Source: Thermoplasmata archaeon
GTDB taxonomy: Archaea; Thermoplasmatota; Thermoplasmata; GCA-020350865
Assembly (NCBI GenBank): GCA_020348445.1
Contig: CP070751.1
Coordinates: 2,273,153-2,337,152, forward strand
Reading direction: 5' to 3'
Length of the DNA: 64,000 nt
Below are positions 1-14,275 of the stretch, piece by piece (positions within the stretch are counted from its first letter, which is position 1; each line of letters begins with the position of its first letter). The notes below the pieces were generated by a model that did no database searches, had not been told where the DNA came from, and saw only the letters and a list, made by a program, of their open reading frames with translations. A program made the translations under genes and the position numbers.

Positions 1-1568
1 GCATCCTCGGAATCCAAATCATTCAATTCATTACAAACTTTGACAGTCTCATCGAGTTTACCCTGTAACATCAGGGTTTTTGCCTTTTTAAGGTGAGCAT
101 CCCTTTCCTTGGGTTTGATTTGTAAAATCCTGTCATAGCAGACAATGGCTTCGTCATAGCGATCAAGTTCACACAGAAGTTCGGCTTTTTTATAGAATTT
201 TTCCAAGTCATCTGGATGTGTTATCAGAGCGTTGTCATAGCATCTCAGTGCCTCTTCAAAGCAGGCCTCTGCATCTTCATATCTGCCCAGGTTGTTGAAG
301 ATCTCCCCTCTGAATATCCAGCCCTCATCATAATCTGGGTTGAGTATAAGGGCATTTCCAAGGGATGCCAAGGCCTCTTCGGATCTGTTCATGCTGTTTA
401 ACGCGTCAGCTTTGGCATACCATGCGTGATCGTAGTTGGGATTTATATCAAGTGAGAGCTCTATAAGTTCCAATCCCTTTTCTGCTTGGCCTAATTTGTA
501 AAGAGCATATCCCTTGGCGTAAAGTGCATAATCAAAATCTGGCACGAGTTCAAGGGATTTATCATGATATTCTATCGATTCCGAGTGTCTGCCCATTTTA
601 TCCAGAGCATTGCCTATGTTGTTCCAGGCTATCTCGTAATCGGGATTGACTTCAATGGCTTTTTCGAAGTATGGAATGGACTCATCATATCTTCCCAAAT
701 TGTAAAGTGCATTACCGATATTGTTCCAAAGCACCTCGTCCTGGGAATCGTATTTCAAGGCCTGTCTGTAGCAGAACAGTGCATCCTCGAGCCTGTCCAT
801 ACCATGAAACGTGTAACCCTTGTTGTACCAGGCATGTTTGTAGTTTGGTGACAGTTCTAGGGCATGATCAAAGCAGCGCAACGCCTCCTCCTGGGCACCC
901 AAGATGAACAATGAAAAACCCTTGTTGTTCCAAGCCTCTTCATCTTTTGGATTCAAACTGAGGGCCGTATCATAACATTCGATGGCCTTTTCATATTCTC
1001 CAAGAGAATACAATGCCCGTCCTCTACCTGTCCATGCTCTCTCGAATTCCTTGTCTATTTTCAAAGCCTTATCGTAGCACTCGATGGCCTTAAGCGGTAT
1101 TTCCAAGTCCTCATAAAGTGTCCCCTTCCGAAACCATGCATTTTTATTCTGTGGATTGATCTTCAAGATGGTGTCATAGCATGCCAAGGCGCGTTTGGTC
1201 TTCCCAAGTTGCGCCAAAGCATTTGCCTTATCGTATAGGGCGCTTTTGTATTCGGGATTGATCTCCAGAGCCTTATCGTAAATTTCCACTGCCTCTTCAT
1301 ATTTATTCATATGACTCAGAGCACTGGCCTTGTTATACCATGCTACTTCATACTTTGGATTGGCCTCTATTGCCTTGTTGTAGCATTCAATGGCATCTTC
1401 TCTCTTTCCTATGGCGTCCAATGCCACGCCCTTGTTGTTATAGGCTATCTCATTTTGAGGATCTATTTTTATGGCGCGATCAAAATGCTCTAGGGCTTCC
1501 TCGTATCTATTGAGGTCGCATAATTTGTTGCCTTTGGATAGATGCACATTCAAATCTGGTTTTTCCAA
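1..1568 (-). CDS. Tetratricopeptide-repeat (TPR) protein, 3' end runs off the window (absent from the ORF track)
   Basis: Translated by hand on the minus strand: tandem 34-aa repeats such as AYNNKGVALDAIGKREDAIECYNKAIEANP and AWYNKASALSHMNKYEEAVEIYDKALEINP. The same frame is open at the window edge (KLDETVKVCNELNDLDSEDA). Probable TTG start at 1568 after AGAGGA; start uncertain. Confidence 0.9.
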   Translation of the reverse strand, partial: MEKPDLNVHLSKGNKLCDLNRYEEALEHFDRAIKIDPQNEIAYNNKGVALDAIGKREDAIECYNKAIEANPKYEVAWYNKASALSHMNKYEEAVEIYDKALEINPEYKSALYDKANALAQLGKTKRALACYDTILKINPQNKNAWFRKGTLYEDLEIPLKAIECYDKALKIDKEFERAWTGRGRALYSLGEYEKAIECYDTALSLNPKDEEAWNNKGFSLFILGAQEEALRCFDHALELSPNYKHAWYNKGYTFHGMDRLEDALFCYRQALKYDSQDEVLWNNIGNALYNLGRYDESIPYFEKAIEVNPDYEIAWNNIGNALDKMGRHSESIEYHDKSLELVPDFDYALYAKGYALYKLGQAEKGLELIELSLDINPNYDHAWYAKADALNSMNRSEEALASLGNALILNPDYDEGWIFRGEIFNNLGRYEDAEACFEEALRCYDNALITHPDDLEKFYKKAELLCELDRYDEAIVCYDRILQIKPKERDAHLKKAKTLMLQGKLDETVKVCNELNDLDSED

Positions 1569-9312: not shown

Positions 9313-9981
9313 TTACTTAATAGCGTAGAAGTTTTCAAAGAAACATTGGGATATATCCGAATCCTCAACCTCTGAGATCGCTTCATCCAATTTCATTTTC
9401 AATTGGGGGAACATCTTCTTGAGATCCATTAAATATTTTTTTCCAGATTCTATATCGATTTCAGGATGGAATTGCACTCCCCATACTGGTGCGTTCTTGA
9501 TTTGAAATGCCTGAACATTGCATTGTTCCGAGGAAGCCAGAATATTAAAATCATCAGAAAGGTTACAAGCTTCATCAAAGTGTGAATTGAAAACAAGAAA
9601 ATCTCCTTCTAATCGTTTAAAAAGGGGATTACCCTTTGTGAGGCACACTAGCTTCCAACCGATCTCGGGAGTTTTTGACTTTCGGACACCTTTGAGCCCC
9701 AGCAATGCCCGTGCAATCAGCTGATGTCCAAAACAGATTCCCAATGTCGGGATATTTTTATCGATAATTTCTCGTACCAATTCCATTTCTTTTTCGATCC
9801 ACTTTCTATCGTTTAAAATGGATTCTTCGGAGCCCGAAAGAATGATATGATCATATTTATCGAGATCTTTAGGGAATTTTCGTTTAGAGGCCTCGAATAT
9901 TTCCAAATCTTCCTGATAATATTTTGAGAAATATTCTGAATATTTTTTATTTATGAAGTTATCTAAAACCAATGTTGTCAT
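9313..9981 (-). CDS. Stand-alone type 1 glutamine amidotransferase (GMP-synthase-like GATase)
   Basis: IILSGS, nucleophile elbow LGICFGHQL, SHFD and QFHPE; Cys-His-Glu triad intact. Confidence 0.9.
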   Translation of the reverse strand: MTTLVLDNFINKKYSEYFSKYYQEDLEIFEASKRKFPKDLDKYDHIILSGSEESILNDRKWIEKEMELVREIIDKNIPTLGICFGHQLIARALLGLKGVRKSKTPEIGWKLVCLTKGNPLFKRLEGDFLVFNSHFDEACNLSDDFNILASSEQCNVQAFQIKNAPVWGVQFHPEIDIESGKKYLMDLKKMFPQLKMKLDEAISEVEDSDISQCFFENFYAIK

Positions 9982-10057
9982 GCCCCCTACACAAGAATAT
10001 GATTATTAAAATATTTCTTTATCACAGCTGAAAGTTAAAAATGGTTTATACGTTTCC

Positions 10058-11821
10058 TCACTTCATCACACCTTGTGTCCCACATTTTGGACATTGTACC
10101 TTTTGTGGGCCAGGTTTCGTTACCATGAAAAATATATTATGGCAACTGGGGCAAGTAACCTGAAGTGTTTGGGTTTGTGGTTGGATCGGCGTTGTTTGAC
10201 CAGGTAAAGAAGAAGAAGTTTGTTGGGGATATTGTTGGATTGGATATGTGGGGGTGGGCCCTTTTGCTGCTTTACTACGCTTATACAGGACCAATGTTGA
10301 TGCTATGGCTAAAGCTACAATTATACCAATGATCCCAGACAATAAAAGTAGCGGCAACCCCTCTTCGTCTGCCCCATCCCCTCCATCCCCTTCATCCGGT
10401 TCTTCCTGTGCACTTATCACGACTGTAAATTCATCGGACCATTCTGATGAATCACCGTGGATATCAATGGCACATACTGTAATGTTGTAAGTACCTTGTG
10501 AAGACCAATTATGAGATAATGAGTCCGTGGTTCCAGAATTGACATAGTCTGTCTCGGAAGTATTACCATCGTCCCAATCAATTCTATACTTGACCTGGTC
10601 ATCATTTGGATCCAATGCAGATACAGAATATGAGTAAGTTTTATCCACATCCCCGCTTTCAGGGCCCTGGGGTTTATCTGGTTTATTTGGCGGCTTTTGT
10701 GGGATTGCACATTTAAGTGTCCTTTCGTTTTCATCGTAATAACTGATATGGAGATAATCCTTGCTGTCCATTGCTATAGACGAGTAGAGGCCAATATTCT
10801 TCGAGGAATCCACAGTTTCTTCGATCCAACGGGATCCATTATATTTCTGATACCTAAGCTCGTTGGTTTCGAAATTATCATTATTTATATCACCCCAGGA
10901 ATAGCATATGGTTGGATTATCATCACTGTCCAGGGCTATTGATCCTGAAAACCCACTAAATTTAGTAGTGGCTATGGTTTCGCTGCTCCATACGCCTGCC
11001 TCCCTTACAGCGTACATTACGTTAAAATAGTAAACTCCATTCATACTATCTACGAAAAAATCGAAGTAACTCATATGTGGATCTCCATTGCTGTCAAGTG
11101 TCAATGATCCGGCATGGCTAACATATTGTGGTGAATGGACGATTTCTGTATCCCAATTACTTTGGGTCCGTTTGGCATATCTCACATCCCAACTCTCATT
11201 CGCAGTGTATCCGATATGCGGATTGTCATTTTCATCCACTGCTATAGAAATATAGAAACCCACATCTCCTTGTGAATCTACTGTTTCGATGTCCCATTTA
11301 CTTCCCGTCCATTCTGTATATTTGAGGTCCAAGGAGGTATTATCATAATAGCTGATATGAGGATGATCGCTGCTATCCAGTGCAAGTGATGAGAATTGGC
11401 CCACATCTTTCTCCGAATCCACAGTTTCGATATTCCATTTGCTCCCACTCCATTTTGCATATTTCAAATCACCGTTGGTTTGGTCATAATAAGAGATATG
11501 CGGAATATCATTACTATCCACAGCCAATGATGAAAAATAGCCTATATCTCCTGCACTTTCGACGGTCTCAACCTTCCAATTGCTTCCAGTCCACTTTACA
11601 TATTTGAGATCTTCACTAGCATTATCAAAATAACTGATGTGCGGAAAACCACTGCTGTCCATTGCTATGGAATTGTACATTCCCACATCATCGGCAGGAT
11701 CTGGAATCTCGATGTTCCACGTCTCGGCCTTCACATTTTCGCTTTTAAGATTCACAAACCCAAAAAATCCCCCGATTATCATGAACCAGATAATGCTAAT
11801 TGAGACAAATCTATAGTTCAT
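10058..11821 (-). CDS. Exported beta-propeller protein with PKD-like domain, C-terminal TM and cytoplasmic zinc ribbon
   Basis: Signal peptide MNYRFVSISIIWF... (ATG 11821, RBS GAAGGCG); about 7 repeats of DVGxYxSxAxDSxDxPHISYYD; PKD-like PNKPDKPQGP...YRIDWDDG; TM helix; CPSCHNIF...CPKCG. Confidence 0.8.
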   Translation of the reverse strand: MNYRFVSISIIWFMIIGGFFGFVNLKSENVKAETWNIEIPDPADDVGMYNSIAMDSSGFPHISYFDNASEDLKYVKWTGSNWKVETVESAGDIGYFSSLAVDSNDIPHISYYDQTNGDLKYAKWSGSKWNIETVDSEKDVGQFSSLALDSSDHPHISYYDNTSLDLKYTEWTGSKWDIETVDSQGDVGFYISIAVDENDNPHIGYTANESWDVRYAKRTQSNWDTEIVHSPQYVSHAGSLTLDSNGDPHMSYFDFFVDSMNGVYYFNVMYAVREAGVWSSETIATTKFSGFSGSIALDSDDNPTICYSWGDINNDNFETNELRYQKYNGSRWIEETVDSSKNIGLYSSIAMDSKDYLHISYYDENERTLKCAIPQKPPNKPDKPQGPESGDVDKTYSYSVSALDPNDDQVKYRIDWDDGNTSETDYVNSGTTDSLSHNWSSQGTYNITVCAIDIHGDSSEWSDEFTVVISAQEEPDEGDGGDGADEEGLPLLLLSGIIGIIVALAIASTLVLYKRSKAAKGPTPTYPIQQYPQQTSSSLPGQTTPIQPQTQTLQVTCPSCHNIFFMVTKPGPQKVQCPKCGTQGVMK

Positions 11822-11968
11822 ACTAACGCCTTCTCTTATATCTGGATACATTTTGCTTTTTATTAACTTTTTGTGCGTTATTTGTTGTTTAAATGCAAAA
11901 AAGGAAGGCAATCCTACATTTCCAGTCAGCGAAGTCGTTAAGAGAGGATCGCAAAAAACCAAAAAAAT

Positions 11969-13576
11969 TCACTTGACCCACTTTTTCGGAACGGATTCAG
12001 GATCGTGGGGATCAGAGCCCCATTCCTTCTCGATTGCATCGCACCATCCATCACCATCTGAGTCCTTTTGGATGTTGCTCAGTATTTCACTTGCCTTCTC
12101 GAAGCAGTTACTATGTGAAGAAATGTGTTTCAGAATCTCTTCAGCGTCCTCCTTTGAGAACTGTCTTAAAAATGCCCTGGCCAACATCAATCGCACTGAA
12201 TCGATGCGATCCCAGGCTTTATTTTGACGGATGAACACCTGAGTCTGAAGGATAAAATCGCTAATTTTTTCGAAATCTTTCCCCATCTTATCAAACAGAT
12301 ACTTGATATCCTCGAAGTATTCCTCGGTTGTGAGCTTCGCTTTTGTGCTTTTCTTAAGGTTTCTTGCCACAATATTGATAGCATCCTTAAAGTTCCTGTT
12401 CACAAAGGGGTCTTCATCCAAGTTGATCACTTGATCTTTTCTTATTCTGAGATATTTTCTTTTACTCTGTTCCCTCCTGAAGGAAACGCCGCTTAAGAAT
12501 GCGGACTCAGTCAAATAATATGGATCGACCTTGTATTTTTTAGCTGAGGTCTTGATGTCTTTATCGTGCCCCAATATATACGATAACTTAACCTGGGACT
12601 CGACTGGAGTGAGATCACCGGAAGGAACTGCACCCAAATCTATGGGTATTAAGCCCGTGTCAAATTCAAAATCTGATACCCCTCCCAGTACCTGCGAGGA
12701 AATCACCACAAAATATTCCTCTTTAAGTGCCTTTTTTATCATAGGCATGATGGAATTCTTCTCCAGCTCCTTTGTATGCACATTTCCAGGTCCATAACCT
12801 GCAATCACAAGGCCCTTTTCGCACCTTTCCAGAAATTTCAAGTAATCCAATTTTGTAAAGAAAGGATTTGTATAAATGAGCTTTACCCCTTCCTCGAACT
12901 TACCATCATAATATGTGTTATATCCGTTTTCCTGGCTTATATCAGCGATTGTCGATGCTATCTTCCTCCAATCTTCAAAGGCCATATCTGAAGAACCTTT
13001 TTCAACAACCGGGTGTGTGTATATCTCATGATAGTATTTTCTCTGATTCTCCTGCTTTAAGAATCCCTCGACAAGGTCCGCCCCTGGCACAAGCCCTCCC
13101 TCTTCGTACCTTATGGATTCGATGGCGCCCCCGCAACGAATCAAATAAAGTTTGTCCAGAGGCCTAACGAACCTCTTGTATTTCAAGTCCTTCCCATATG
13201 TTTTTAATTCATCCCAACTTATCTTTGCGATTTCCTCCCCCGCAAATGCATCTGGTTCCCAATTATGTTTCTTCTGTAATCTCGAACTGTAAACCGTCCT
13301 ACCGAAATTAAAAATAACGGCAACACAGGGTGGATCAACCCTGGTAAGAAAGATCAAGGAATTCCTTATGTTCTCCCCTGCATCAGTGGAGGAGAAACCG
13401 GTTTTGAGGGGTCGTTGAGATCCGGTTATGGCTATGTTGCATTTCATATTCTTCATCATATATCTCAAAGCAGAAAATGCCCATGCCATTGTATCTGTCC
13501 CGTGTGTAACCAGTATCCCAAAATCAGCCATACTTTTATAATCCGATTCCTTTGATCGTTTTTTTGTTCTGGTCAA
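11969..13576 (-). CDS. L-asparaginase/glutaminase-fold protein with permuted N-domain, Thr-to-Ala at the GGTI nucleophile, and C-terminal extension ending in a Ca-binding TSP3-like repeat
   Basis: THGTDTMAW, TGSQRP, QKKH, GYGPGN and GDLTPVESQVKLSYILG in canonical order; the normally N-terminal CGGAIES...SSDMAFEDWRKIA segment lies internally. TTG start 7 nt after GGAGGG. Confidence 0.8.
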   Translation of the reverse strand: MTRTKKRSKESDYKSMADFGILVTHGTDTMAWAFSALRYMMKNMKCNIAITGSQRPLKTGFSSTDAGENIRNSLIFLTRVDPPCVAVIFNFGRTVYSSRLQKKHNWEPDAFAGEEIAKISWDELKTYGKDLKYKRFVRPLDKLYLIRCGGAIESIRYEEGGLVPGADLVEGFLKQENQRKYYHEIYTHPVVEKGSSDMAFEDWRKIASTIADISQENGYNTYYDGKFEEGVKLIYTNPFFTKLDYLKFLERCEKGLVIAGYGPGNVHTKELEKNSIMPMIKKALKEEYFVVISSQVLGGVSDFEFDTGLIPIDLGAVPSGDLTPVESQVKLSYILGHDKDIKTSAKKYKVDPYYLTESAFLSGVSFRREQSKRKYLRIRKDQVINLDEDPFVNRNFKDAINIVARNLKKSTKAKLTTEEYFEDIKYLFDKMGKDFEKISDFILQTQVFIRQNKAWDRIDSVRLMLARAFLRQFSKEDAEEILKHISSHSNCFEKASEILSNIQKDSDGDGWCDAIEKEWGSDPHDPESVPKKWVK

Positions 13577-13693
13577 AGTATTCCCTCCAGCTAAACCAAA
13601 TCACCGAAAGAGTTGTTTGAATTAAAAGTTTATGCCTAAAAGGGCGAGAAACATTCAAAAATTTAAATAACCCAAATTCATTCTCTCTAAGCC

Positions 13694-14275
13694 ATGTTCC
13701 CCTTAGGTCATATAGGTATAACCATTGGCATTGTATATCTGATGCTATCGTTATTATCCTCTAGAAATAAACTCAGCGACCCTCGTAAATCGCCATTCGA
13801 AGAACTGGATTTCCGGTTCGTTATATTTGCAGCACTTTTACCTGATATCGTTGACAAGATCGTGGGGATGCTGATATTTAAAGATGAATTCTCAAATGGC
13901 AGGATATTTATGCATTCTGCCGTCGTAATCGGCATATTGTCCATATGTTACTTCATTGCAGCCAGAATTAAATTAAAAAGTGCTCTTATTACCATATGCT
14001 ATATCTTTTCCGTATGGATGCATCTATTATTGGATATGATGTGGGTGGAACCAAAGACTCTGTTTTGGCCACTTATGGGTTTAGATTTTCCAAGATCTGA
14101 TGTTGAATTTTCTGATTACTTTGGGATGCTAATAACGAATTCCTTCACATATTTTACGGAGATTTTGGGTGGTTTGATAATAATCATATTAATTATTAGG
14201 CACAGGTTGTTTATAAAAATGCATCTTATTGAATTTATTAAGGATGGAAAACTTAAAATATTGTCTGAATCCTAG
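13694..14275 (+). CDS. Membrane-bound metal-dependent hydrolase (YdjM/DUF457-like)
   Basis: N-terminal MFPLGH, LLPDIVDK, GRIFMHS and HLLLD motifs among TM helices. Confidence 0.8.
   Translation: MFPLGHIGITIGIVYLMLSLLSSRNKLSDPRKSPFEELDFRFVIFAALLPDIVDKIVGMLIFKDEFSNGRIFMHSAVVIGILSICYFIAARIKLKSALITICYIFSVWMHLLLDMMWVEPKTLFWPLMGLDFPRSDVEFSDYFGMLITNSFTYFTEILGGLIIIILIIRHRLFIKMHLIEFIKDGKLKILSES

What the first reader, a model, noticed from the sequence alone, without database searches (positions are those of the whole stretch)
11969..13576. Permuted L-asparaginase fold with the catalytic Thr replaced by Ala
Seen: the chain starts at the HGTDT strand (13504). The segment that opens every type I asparaginase and GatD sits internally at 13150-12920, between the N-domain remainder and the C-domain: LYLIRCGGAIES...GGLVP...GSSDMAFEDWRKIA, versus E. 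coli AnsA IYVAYTGGTIG...GYIP...DSSDMTPEDWQHIA (recalled from memory). The order is therefore B-A-C instead of A-B-C. A good RBS sits 7 nt before the TTG start and the next gene starts divergently at 13694, so there is no room for a missing N-terminus. Known: the Thr of GGTI (AnsA T14) is the acylating nucleophile; T91/D92/K163 form the second triad. Here GGTI is GGAI (codon GCC at 13126-13124, one base from ACC) and DSS is GSS, while HGTDT and the Lys (QKKH) remain. Inference: a naturally permuted, catalytically rewired or pseudo-enzyme asparaginase. It is co-oriented with a stand-alone GATase two genes downstream.
Basis: partly seen in the sequence, partly recalled or inferred. Interest (0 to 1): 0.85.

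Follow-up and report, generated by a model that had tools for sequence, protein, structure and literature searches.

The report
Permuted asparaginase-like protein, nucleophile lost
This archaeal gene belongs to a previously undescribed family of asparaginase/GatD-like enzymes whose first domain is circularly permuted. This genome's copy alone has also lost the catalytic threonine, so it is probably an inactive but still maintained relative of real enzymes.

Summary
ORF 11969-13576(-) encodes 520-535 aa in which the asparaginase N-domain is read in the order B (HGTDT...K) then A (GG-x-I...SSDM), followed by the C-domain. The evidence is out-of-order Pfam hits, profile-profile alignment and two AlphaFold models compared with solved asparaginases and GatD.

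The permutation is not private to this gene. At least about 50 clusters (50% identity) from Asgard archaea and bacteria share it, alone or fused to a receiver domain, a divergent GATase-like domain or a helical tail.

The Thr-to-Ala change, however, is private. T151 and D194 are 58/58 in the relatives; only this protein has CGGAI/GSSDM. An independent Logan assembly gives the same protein and gene order, so it is not a misassembly. The gene is intact and under purifying selection.

Best reading: a permuted GatD/type I asparaginase-like protein that has lost Thr-nucleophile hydrolysis and persists as a non-catalytic, possibly ligand-binding, protein.

The link to the GATase two genes downstream is weak and specific to this lineage. 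The scan noted a REC-asparaginase fusion before, on other DNA (e1-1113552).

The parts
11969..13576 (-). Whole ORF, 535 aa from TTG 13576 (alternative ATG start at 13531 gives 520 aa); stop TGA at 11971-11969
   Evidence: The NCBI record has 535 aa and the Logan gene aa.
13193..13531 (-). Segment B (residues 16-128): the second half of the canonical asparaginase N-domain, now at the N-terminus. Contains HGTDT (13504-13490; T27, D28) and K102 (13273-13271).
   Evidence: Pfam PF00710 positions 79-177. hhalign to canonical 78-166, E 2.4e-31. VIA alignment of model 16..370 to chains at about 75..330, Z about 22.
12911..13192 (-). Segment A (residues 129-222): the canonical N-terminal half, now internal. 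Carries strand beta1 with CGGAI (13135-13121; C148, A151), the hairpin, GSSDM (12997-12983; G194) and the helix EDWRKIA.
   Evidence: Pfam PF00710 positions 1-77 at 13153-12920, E 3.4e-6. hhalign to canonical 2-79, E 2.7e-19. The fragment model aligns to chains from residue 1-2 onward.
12527..12910 (-). Segment C (residues 223-350): asparaginase C-terminal domain
   Evidence: PF17763, E 6e-15. hhalign to canonical 198-317, E 1e-27.
12065..12526 (-). All-helical tail (residues 351-504), shared only with the closest subclade (P0003-P0006). No family assigned.
   Evidence: AF2 secondary structure, pLDDT above 90. Alignment A1.
11999..12064 (-). Acidic DxDxDG-type repeat (residues 505-526) resembling a bacterial thrombospondin type 3 calcium-binding repeat; below threshold
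   Evidence: PF18884, E 0.0012, 19.1 bits against a cut-off of 25. Conserved in P0003-P0006.
11953..11967 (-). Two oligo-T runs (T7 and T6) directly after the stop codon: an archaeal terminator-like signal, suggesting a monocistronic gene
   Evidence: Read. That oligo-T acts as an archaeal terminator is established knowledge, so this is inference.
13583..13588 (-). GGAGGG ribosome-binding-like site, 6 nt before the TTG start
   Evidence: Read.
9313..9981 (-). Stand-alone class I glutamine amidotransferase (GICFGHQ...VQFHPE), two genes downstream. Doubtful partner.
   Evidence: PF00117, E 1.2e-26. It is the best of 12,982 own-genome ORFs against an HMM of the GATase-like domain fused in long relatives, but at only E 0.007. 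It is absent from the syntenic loci of the closest relatives.

Best explanation
The gene encodes a cytoplasmic member of an undescribed family related to type I L-asparaginase and GatD. In this family the N-terminal domain is circularly permuted. The HGTDT/Lys half comes first, the TGGT/DSS half second, and the C-domain is re-attached after the helix that normally precedes HGTDT.

Shown: the permuted order, its conservation in roughly 50 or more clusters from archaea and bacteria, and high-confidence models in which all three segments superpose on solved asparaginases and GatD.

Inferred: the family as a whole consists of active amidohydrolases, because the nucleophile Thr, the DSS loop, the T-D pair and the Lys are almost invariant.

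The window's copy has private substitutions at three of these positions: T151A (the acylating Thr), T148C and D194G. It therefore most likely no longer hydrolyses amides by the Thr-acyl mechanism. The ORF is nevertheless intact, its fold-determining residues are kept, and non-synonymous divergence is low against saturated synonymous divergence.

I therefore read it as a maintained, catalytically dead or severely impaired protein. It may still bind an Asn/Gln-like ligand, as engineered Thr-to-Ala asparaginases do, or it may act through its helical, acidic-repeat tail. Canonical GatD function is covered by two normal paralogues elsewhere in the genome.

The permutation probably arose by duplication of the N-domain (A-B-A-B-C) followed by loss of the first A and the second B. 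This is inference.
For: Permutation:
- Pfam hits fall out of order on the genome.
- hhalign places A at E 2.7e-19, B at E 2.4e-31 and C at E 1e-27 on canonical positions 2-79, 78-166 and 198-317.
- The full AF2 model has pLDDT 93.7 and pTM 0.91. Its residues 16..370 align to asparaginase and GatD chains at about 75..330, with about 245 residues aligned, rmsd 2.6-2.9 and Z 21-22.6, skipping segment A.
- The A+C fragment model (pLDDT 94) aligns to the same chains from residue 1-2 to about 328, with 195-212 residues aligned, rmsd about 3 and Z 15-16.7. C-domain-only chains align just 120-122 residues. Segment A therefore sits where the canonical N-terminus sits.
- An ESM Atlas cluster of 125 proteins of 402 aa matches with TM 0.91 over 360 residues, against TM 0.61 over about 250 residues for canonical forms.

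Family:
- 51 representatives score E <= 1e-30 as a single stretch.
- HGTDT precedes TGGTI, which precedes DSSxM, in essentially all members.

Private loss:
- T151 is 58/58, D194 58/58 and T148 55/58 in the relatives, and only P0001 deviates at the first two.
- Four nucleotide changes in three codons rule out a single base error.
- A second assembly gives an identical protein.

Maintenance:
- Against the closest relative, dN is 0.13 with pS 0.72, which is saturated.
- The catalytic core carries about twice the lineage-specific substitutions of its sisters (24 against 10 and 12), while the tail does not (5 against 6 and 7). The core branch length is 0.243 against 0.108 and 0.174.

Other points:
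- PDB entries 5dnc (T19A) and 7c8x (T13A) are Asn-bound Thr-to-Ala asparaginases (titles).
- Two canonical GatD-type genes have intact GTGGTIAS and HGTDT.
Against: - No activity or binding data exist.
The A+C superposition also comes from a separately folded fragment.
- The timing of T151A is unknown. The low pairwise dN/dS is dominated by the long shared history, so a recent inactivation on the way to gene decay is not excluded. The twofold excess of core substitutions fits that reading as well.
- Residual or alternative chemistry through the second Thr (T27) or the new Cys148 cannot be excluded.
- Raw reads were not inspected.
Confidence: 0.65

Rival explanations
1. The protein is still an enzyme with rewired catalysis. 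It would hydrolyse an amide using another nucleophile: the retained T27 of the HGTDT triad, or the newly introduced Cys148 three residues before the lost Thr.
For: T27, D28, K102, S195 and S196 are all retained. The T148C change needs two nucleotide substitutions and is unique in the family, which could mean gain rather than drift. Gly at position 194 is seen in the engineered GSQ variant 9ufr aligned to the query's GSS.
Against: From established knowledge, recalled rather than tested here, Thr-to-Ala replacement of this residue in E. coli and other asparaginases essentially abolishes activity and is used to trap substrate. The PDB titles for 5dnc and 7c8x fit this. No other family member uses Cys at 148; the variants there are S or A. 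The geometry could not be checked.
Confidence: 0.15
2. The gene was inactivated recently and is drifting towards a pseudogene. On this reading it is a relic with no retained function.
For: There are private hits at three near-invariant catalytic positions plus Y305F. The core has about twice as many lineage-specific substitutions as its sisters. No match was found in four same-genus genomes, so the gene is dispensable. The nearest relative P0003 has K102T, which hints at eroding catalysis in this subclade.
Against: The 535-codon frame is uninterrupted and the start signals are good. The tail is as conserved as in the sisters (80-82% identity). dN is 0.13 against saturated dS. About half of the private substitutions are conservative by my reading of the list.
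Confidence: 0.15
3. The GGAI motif or the segment order is a sequencing or assembly artefact.
For: Raw reads could not be inspected.
Against: The same B-A-C order occurs in about 60 independent sequences from many samples. The Logan assembly of SRR14739665 gives an identical 520-aa product and the same neighbours. Three separate codons are changed.
Confidence: 0.03

Closest known systems
Type I (cytosolic) L-asparaginases, e.g. Thermococcus kodakarensis TkA (5ot0), Pyrococcus horikoshii PH0066 (1wls), E. coli AnsA (2p2d)
   Same: Both domains are present: PF00710 at 89 bits and PF17763 at 56 bits. The fold matches at VIA Z 20-22 with rmsd 2.5-2.9. The HGTDT pair, the Lys and the SS of the substrate loop are kept.
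   Different: The order of the N-domain halves is swapped (B-A instead of A-B), with the C-domain attached after A. The nucleophile Thr is Ala. The score is 104 bits against the TIGR00519 cut-off of 260.5. There is an extra 185-aa helical tail.
GatD, the asparaginase-like glutaminase subunit of archaeal GatDE (1zq1, 2d6f)
   Same: Best NCBIfam scores are 105-110 bits. 1zq1_A is the top Foldseek hit and the top hit for the A+C fragment (Z 16.7). One bacterial family member lies in a gatC-gatA-gatB::aspS operon.
   Different: There is no GatD_N domain. The score is far below the equivalog cut-offs of 310-324. The N-domain is permuted. The genome has two canonical GatD-type genes elsewhere.
Engineered Thr-to-Ala asparaginases used to trap substrate (guinea pig T19A 5dnc; Bacillus licheniformis T13A 7c8x)
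   Same: The same residue is replaced by the same amino acid. Those proteins fold and bind Asn (PDB titles).
   Different: Those are laboratory mutants of canonical-order enzymes. This one is natural, is permuted and carries two further changes (T148C, D194G).
The permuted relatives themselves (P0003-P0026, P0122-P0171). These include Heimdallarchaeota 'asparaginase domain-containing protein' entries and bacterial REC-asparaginase fusions.
   Same: They share the B-A-C order at 26-77% identity, and the closest ones share the helical tail.
   Different: They keep TGGTI and DSS. Many carry an N-terminal receiver domain or a C-terminal divergent GATase-like domain instead of the helical tail.
Asparaginase-family enzymes of V4R-based conflict systems (preprint 10.64898/2026.10.19.760177)
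   Same: Both are asparaginase-family proteins placed outside primary metabolism and proposed to act on an amide to make or remove a signal.
   Different: No V4R gene lies near any locus examined. In the passages I read, the preprint uses 'permuted' only for FHA domains, not for the asparaginase. No PADLOC model was matched.

Membership tests
L-asparaginase/GatD superfamily (PF00710 + PF17763) | N-terminal and C-terminal asparaginase domains detected above Pfam gathering scores | tested here: met
   PF00710 scores 89.4 bits (cut-off 22.5) and PF17763 scores 55.6 bits (cut-off 34.6).
L-asparaginase/GatD superfamily (PF00710 + PF17763) | Two-domain alpha/beta fold superposable on solved members | tested here: met
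   VIA gives Z 21-22.6, rmsd 2.6-2.9 and about 245 residues aligned for B+C. It gives Z 15-16.7 and 195-212 residues aligned for A+C. Both queries are predicted models.
Canonical type I asparaginase (TIGR00519) / GatD (TIGR02153, NF003217) | Linear order TGGT segment, then HGTDT segment, then C-domain | tested here: not met
   The order is HGTDT (residues 25-29), then CGGAI (148-152), then the C-domain (223-350)..
Canonical type I asparaginase (TIGR00519) / GatD (TIGR02153, NF003217) | Score above the curated NCBIfam cut-off | tested here: not met
   103.9 bits against 260.5 for TIGR00519; 105 against 324 for TIGR02153; 110 against 310 for NF003217.
Catalytically competent asparaginase/glutaminase | Nucleophilic Thr in the TGGT turn (E. 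coli AnsA T14 / AnsB T12 equivalent) | tested here: not met
   Ala151, codon GCC at 13126-13124. It is Thr in 58/58 relatives.
Catalytically competent asparaginase/glutaminase | Second triad Thr-Asp-Lys | tested here: met
   T27, D28 and K102 are present and aligned to the conserved columns.
Catalytically competent asparaginase/glutaminase | Measured hydrolysis of Asn or Gln | not testable with these tools
   This needs an enzyme assay.
GatD (functional subunit of GatDE) | GatD_N domain (PF18195) and partnership with GatE | tested here: not met
   No PF18195 hit. Two canonical GatD-type genes lie elsewhere, at C1:4116470 and C1:3724822. Adjacency to GatE was not examined.
Permuted (B-A-C) asparaginase-like family defined here | A single collinear alignment over B, A and C to other permuted members | tested here: met
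   One stretch covering query residues about 16-410 in about 50 representatives at E <= 1e-30. Alignments A1 and A2. Atlas TM 0.91 over 360 residues.
Permuted (B-A-C) asparaginase-like family defined here | Near-invariant TGGTI and DSS motifs | tested here: not met
   CGGAI and GSS in this protein only.
Pseudoenzyme (maintained, non-catalytic homologue) | Loss of an essential catalytic residue while the fold is kept and purifying selection continues | tested here: inconclusive
   Loss of the residue and retention of the fold are shown. Pairwise dN is well below saturated dS, but selection after the loss cannot be isolated.

The most novel reading that the evidence does not exclude
After the lineage acquired the neighbouring class I GATase, the permuted asparaginase-like protein gave up its own Thr nucleophile. 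That GATase is the best own-genome match to the GATase-like domain fused in distant relatives. On this reading the protein persists under selection as a non-catalytic amide or amino-acid binding subunit. Alternatively it works through the unique Cys148 as a relocated nucleophile. Either way it would be a natural example of catalytic hand-over or nucleophile migration inside a circularly permuted asparaginase fold.
Probability: 0.12. Interest if true: 0.75.

Novelty: new variant of a known kind. Interest (0 to 1): 0.55.

Why it matters
Type I/II asparaginases and GatD are intensively studied, both as leukaemia drugs and for tRNA-dependent Gln synthesis. They are always described with the TGGT nucleophile at the extreme N-terminus. 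A natural, conserved circular permutation of the N-domain shows that the active site tolerates a different chain topology. That is useful for engineering and for understanding how the two catalytic triads are assembled.

The family's fusions and contexts point to regulated or specialised amidohydrolase roles that nobody has assayed. They include receiver domains, a divergent GATase-like domain, and one gene inside a gatCAB-aspS operon.

The window's copy is a natural version of the laboratory Thr-to-Ala 'substrate trap'. Together with its active-looking orthologues at 77% identity, it offers a ready-made pair for asking what an asparaginase fold does once hydrolysis is lost.

Tried and rejected
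I relied instead on the identical Logan assembly.
- Complex prediction of the protein with the neighbouring GATase returned 'no answer' (score 0.00). That is neither support nor evidence against binding.
- Stand-alone homologues of the long forms' C-terminal domain: a search with P0007 residues 420-815 among shorter proteins found only fragments of long forms from Heimdallarchaeota, and no GATase of the window's type.
- Defence-system models: PADLOC gave nothing for the protein, a long relative or the neighbours. A REC-fused relative gave only a weak REC-type hit.
- Distribution: no match at E <= 1e-20 in 40 relatives, including 4 same-genus genomes, and none at E <= 1e-25 in 400 genomes sampled from the phylum. 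This means 'not found in those searched', not 'absent'.
- Literature: five full-text searches found no report of a naturally permuted type I/II asparaginase or GatD. The hits on 'permutation' concern Ntn-type (type III) asparaginases or Taspase1, or are unrelated.
- A conserved operon with the GATase was considered and rejected. The syntenic loci of the closest relatives have either nothing (L014/L015) or a PIN-RHH pair (L009) at that spot.
- I could not compute a non-sequential superposition or inter-residue distances, because model coordinates are not exposed.
Full report
**1. The observation**

The ORF at 11969-13576 on the minus strand exists as described. It encodes 535 aa from the TTG at 13576, with GGAGGG 6 nt upstream. 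From the ATG at 13531 it encodes 520 aa; both versions occur in public gene calls. The open frame extends only 8 codons above the TTG. A YdjM-family gene starts divergently at 13694. No N-terminal piece can therefore be missing.

- HGTDT is residues 25-29.
- LYLIRCGGAIES begins at residue 143.
- Ala151 is GCC at 13126-13124.
- Cys148 is TGC at 13135-13133.
- GSSDM starts at residue 194 (GGT at 12997-12995).
- K102 lies in QKKH.

**2. The permutation is real**

Four independent lines agree.

(a) A Pfam PF00710 search over the whole genome reports two separate matches in this ORF, in reversed order. Profile positions 79-177 fall at window 13519-13220 (63.4 bits). Profile positions 1-77 fall downstream at window 13153-12920 (28.1 bits, E 3.4e-6).

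(b) I ran profile-profile alignment of family sub-alignments against 60 canonical asparaginases of about 330 aa.

| Query residues | Canonical positions | E-value | Probability |
|---|---|---|---|
| 141-219 | 2-79 | 2.7e-19 | 99.2% |
| 20-112 | 78-166 | 2.4e-31 | 99.9% |
| 223-344 | 198-317 | 1e-27 | 99.8% |

(c) The AlphaFold2 model of the whole protein is confident (pLDDT 93.7, pTM 0.91). Segment A has the canonical succession of strand, hairpin, short helix, strand and long helix. A sequential structural aligner places model residues 16..370 on residues of about 75..330 of asparaginases and GatD. About 245 residues align at rmsd 2.6-2.9 and Z 21-22.6. That is B plus C, with A skipped as an insertion.

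(d) To see where A goes, I folded residues 129-375 (A+C) separately (pLDDT 94). This fragment aligns to the same chains from their residue 1-2 through about 328. Between 195 and 212 residues align at rmsd about 3 and Z 15-16.7. Chains that contain only the C-domain align just 120-122 residues. A therefore superposes on the canonical N-terminal segment in the same frame as C. Together, B+C (245 residues) and A (about 80) account for a complete asparaginase.

The caveat is that both are predicted models, and A+C was folded on its own. I could not access coordinates to measure active-site distances.

**3. It is a family trait**

A word-indexed search and an exhaustive HMMER search found about 25 clusters at 90% identity and 51 representatives at 50% identity with E <= 1e-30. 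These align collinearly over B, A and C. In every member the order is HGTDT, then TGGTI, then DSSxM.

The ESM Atlas holds a 125-member cluster of 402-aa proteins whose models match at TM 0.91 over 360 residues. Canonical forms match at TM 0.61 over about 250 residues.

The architectures vary:
- A bare core of about 390-405 aa.
- REC plus core, about 540 aa (Pfam PF00072). One such gene sits in a clearly bacterial neighbourhood with LptE, a T2SS pseudopilin and cytochrome c.
- Longer unassigned N-terminal extensions.
- Core plus a domain of about 400 aa in Heimdallarchaeota and other Asgard MAGs (names). This domain carries CLGHQ and FQFHPE motifs. It gives sub-threshold PF00117 hits at the right profile positions (best E 4e-4) and an hhalign match to the window's GATase (87% probability).
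- Core plus helical tail plus an acidic TSP3-like repeat, which is the window's subclade (P0003-P0006).

Five literature searches found no description of a naturally permuted type I/II asparaginase or GatD.

**4. The Thr-to-Ala change is private to this genome**

Among 47 columns that are at least 88% conserved in the other 58 aligned members, T151 and D194 are 58/58 and T148 is 55/58. P0001 alone has A, G and C at these positions. It also has Y305F, where Tyr is 57/58.

The closest relatives, at 77% and 75% identity, read RTGGTIES and DSSDM. The three motif changes need four nucleotide substitutions.

The same protein and gene order appear in the Logan assembly of SRR14739665, on a 19.3-kb contig. 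An artefact is therefore very unlikely, although raw reads could not be examined.

**5. State of the gene**

- Against the closest relative's gene (L014), dN is 0.13 while synonymous sites are saturated (pS 0.72).
- Tail identity to the sister sequences is 80-82%, the same as between the sisters themselves.
- The catalytic core has evolved somewhat faster than in the sisters. Its branch length is 0.243 against 0.108 and 0.174. It carries 24 lineage-specific core substitutions against 10 and 12, while the tail carries 5 against 6 and 7.

This fits relaxed constraint on catalysis in a protein that is otherwise maintained. It cannot exclude a recent inactivation.

The nearest relative has K102T, which hints that catalysis may be eroding more widely in this subclade.

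Two canonical GatD-type genes, with intact GTGGTIAS and HGTDT, lie elsewhere in the 5.16-Mb single-contig genome. They mark the organism as an archaeon and cover the housekeeping function.

No match to the permuted protein was found in four same-genus genomes at E <= 1e-20, so it is an accessory gene.

**6. Context and the GATase**

The gene order DUF998, YdjM-like, permuted asparaginase, [variable spot], wHTH (HTH_45), a gene of about 420 aa, PspC, CarboxypepD_reg is shared with the loci of P0267/P0003 and P0004. The variable spot differs between loci:

| Locus | Content of the variable spot |
|---|---|
| L014/L015 | Empty |
| L009 | A PIN-RHH toxin-antitoxin pair |
| This window | A PKD/DUF7253 surface protein plus the 222-aa class I GATase |

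The GATase is therefore a lineage-specific insertion, not a conserved partner. The asparaginase-like gene also ends in T7 and T6 runs (11953-11967), an archaeal terminator-like signal.

On the other side, an HMM of the fused GATase-like domain of the long relatives hits the neighbouring GATase as the top ORF, and the only one below E 0.01, among 12,982 in the genome (E 0.007). It scores ahead of the four other PF00117 genes. I rate a functional link at roughly one in four.

**7. Function of the family**

The function is unknown, but the almost invariant catalytic set argues for active amidohydrolases.

One bacterial member (P0156) overlaps the start of a gatC-like gene. That gene is followed by gatA-like and a 1106-aa GatB::AspRS fusion. 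This suggests a GatD-like role, supplying ammonia, in at least one lineage.

The REC fusions suggest phosphorylation-gated activity in others. The scan noted this earlier on other DNA (e1-1113552). A recent preprint proposes asparaginase-family enzymes as signal generators in V4R conflict systems, but no V4R gene was seen near the loci examined.

**8. Verdict**

The permutation is confirmed and is a property of a family that appears to be undescribed, so this is a new variant of a known kind.

The loss of the nucleophile is real but confined to this one lineage. It most plausibly makes this copy an inactive, still maintained homologue (confidence 0.65). The rivals are alternative chemistry (0.15), a decaying relic (0.15) and an artefact (0.03).

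Noticed in passing
L017:6001-12206: A bacterial member of the permuted family (P0156, 402 aa) overlaps the start of a gatC-like gene. That gene is followed by a gatA-like amidase and a 1106-aa GatB::AspRS fusion (GatB 383 bits, AspRS 717 bits). This looks like a compact 'transamidosome' operon with an extra GatD-like gene, next to a DDE transposase-associated gene and GmrSD.
   Followed up: partly
window 9313-11962: The PKD/DUF7253 surface protein and the class I GATase sit in a variable spot between the asparaginase-like gene and the wHTH gene. The syntenic locus L009 holds a PIN-RHH toxin-antitoxin pair there, and L014/L015 hold nothing.
   Followed up: yes
L015 (GCA_001302785.1, LIZX01000092.1): The closest homologue is filed under 'candidate division WOR-1 bacterium DG_54_3'. 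Its contig nevertheless shares the gene order DUF998, YdjM-like, asparaginase-like, HTH_45, a gene of about 420 aa, PspC, CarboxypepD_reg with this archaeal genome. The contig is probably mis-binned.
   Followed up: partly
window 11999-12064: An acidic DSDGDG...DPxDP repeat resembling a bacterial thrombospondin type 3 calcium-binding repeat (PF18884, sub-threshold) ends a protein with no signal peptide. It is conserved in the five closest relatives.
   Followed up: no
P0003 / L014:8001-9605: The nearest relative keeps TGGTI and DSS but has Thr at the column of the catalytic Lys (K102T), with a Lys one position later. This may be a second case of catalytic erosion in the same subclade, or a local alignment shift.
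   Followed up: no
G000:C1:4116470-4117042 and G000:C1:3724822-3725406 (loci L005, L006): The genome carries two canonical GatD-type paralogues at 45% identity to each other. One is full length (437 aa). The other (395 aa) lacks most of the GatD N-terminal domain. Both score above the GatD equivalog cut-offs.
   Followed up: partly
L013:1220-6453: A REC-fused permuted asparaginase (P0009) is followed on the same strand by a second REC protein, a protein with a faint HD-CE hit, and a PNP_UDP_1 nucleoside phosphorylase. This is possibly a signalling or conflict-type operon.
   Followed up: no
P0279 and P0289 (same 265,808-bp contig): Two short proteins (282 aa and 66 aa) on one contig both match the C-terminal GATase-like domain of the long forms. 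This may be a split or frameshifted long-form gene.
   Followed up: no
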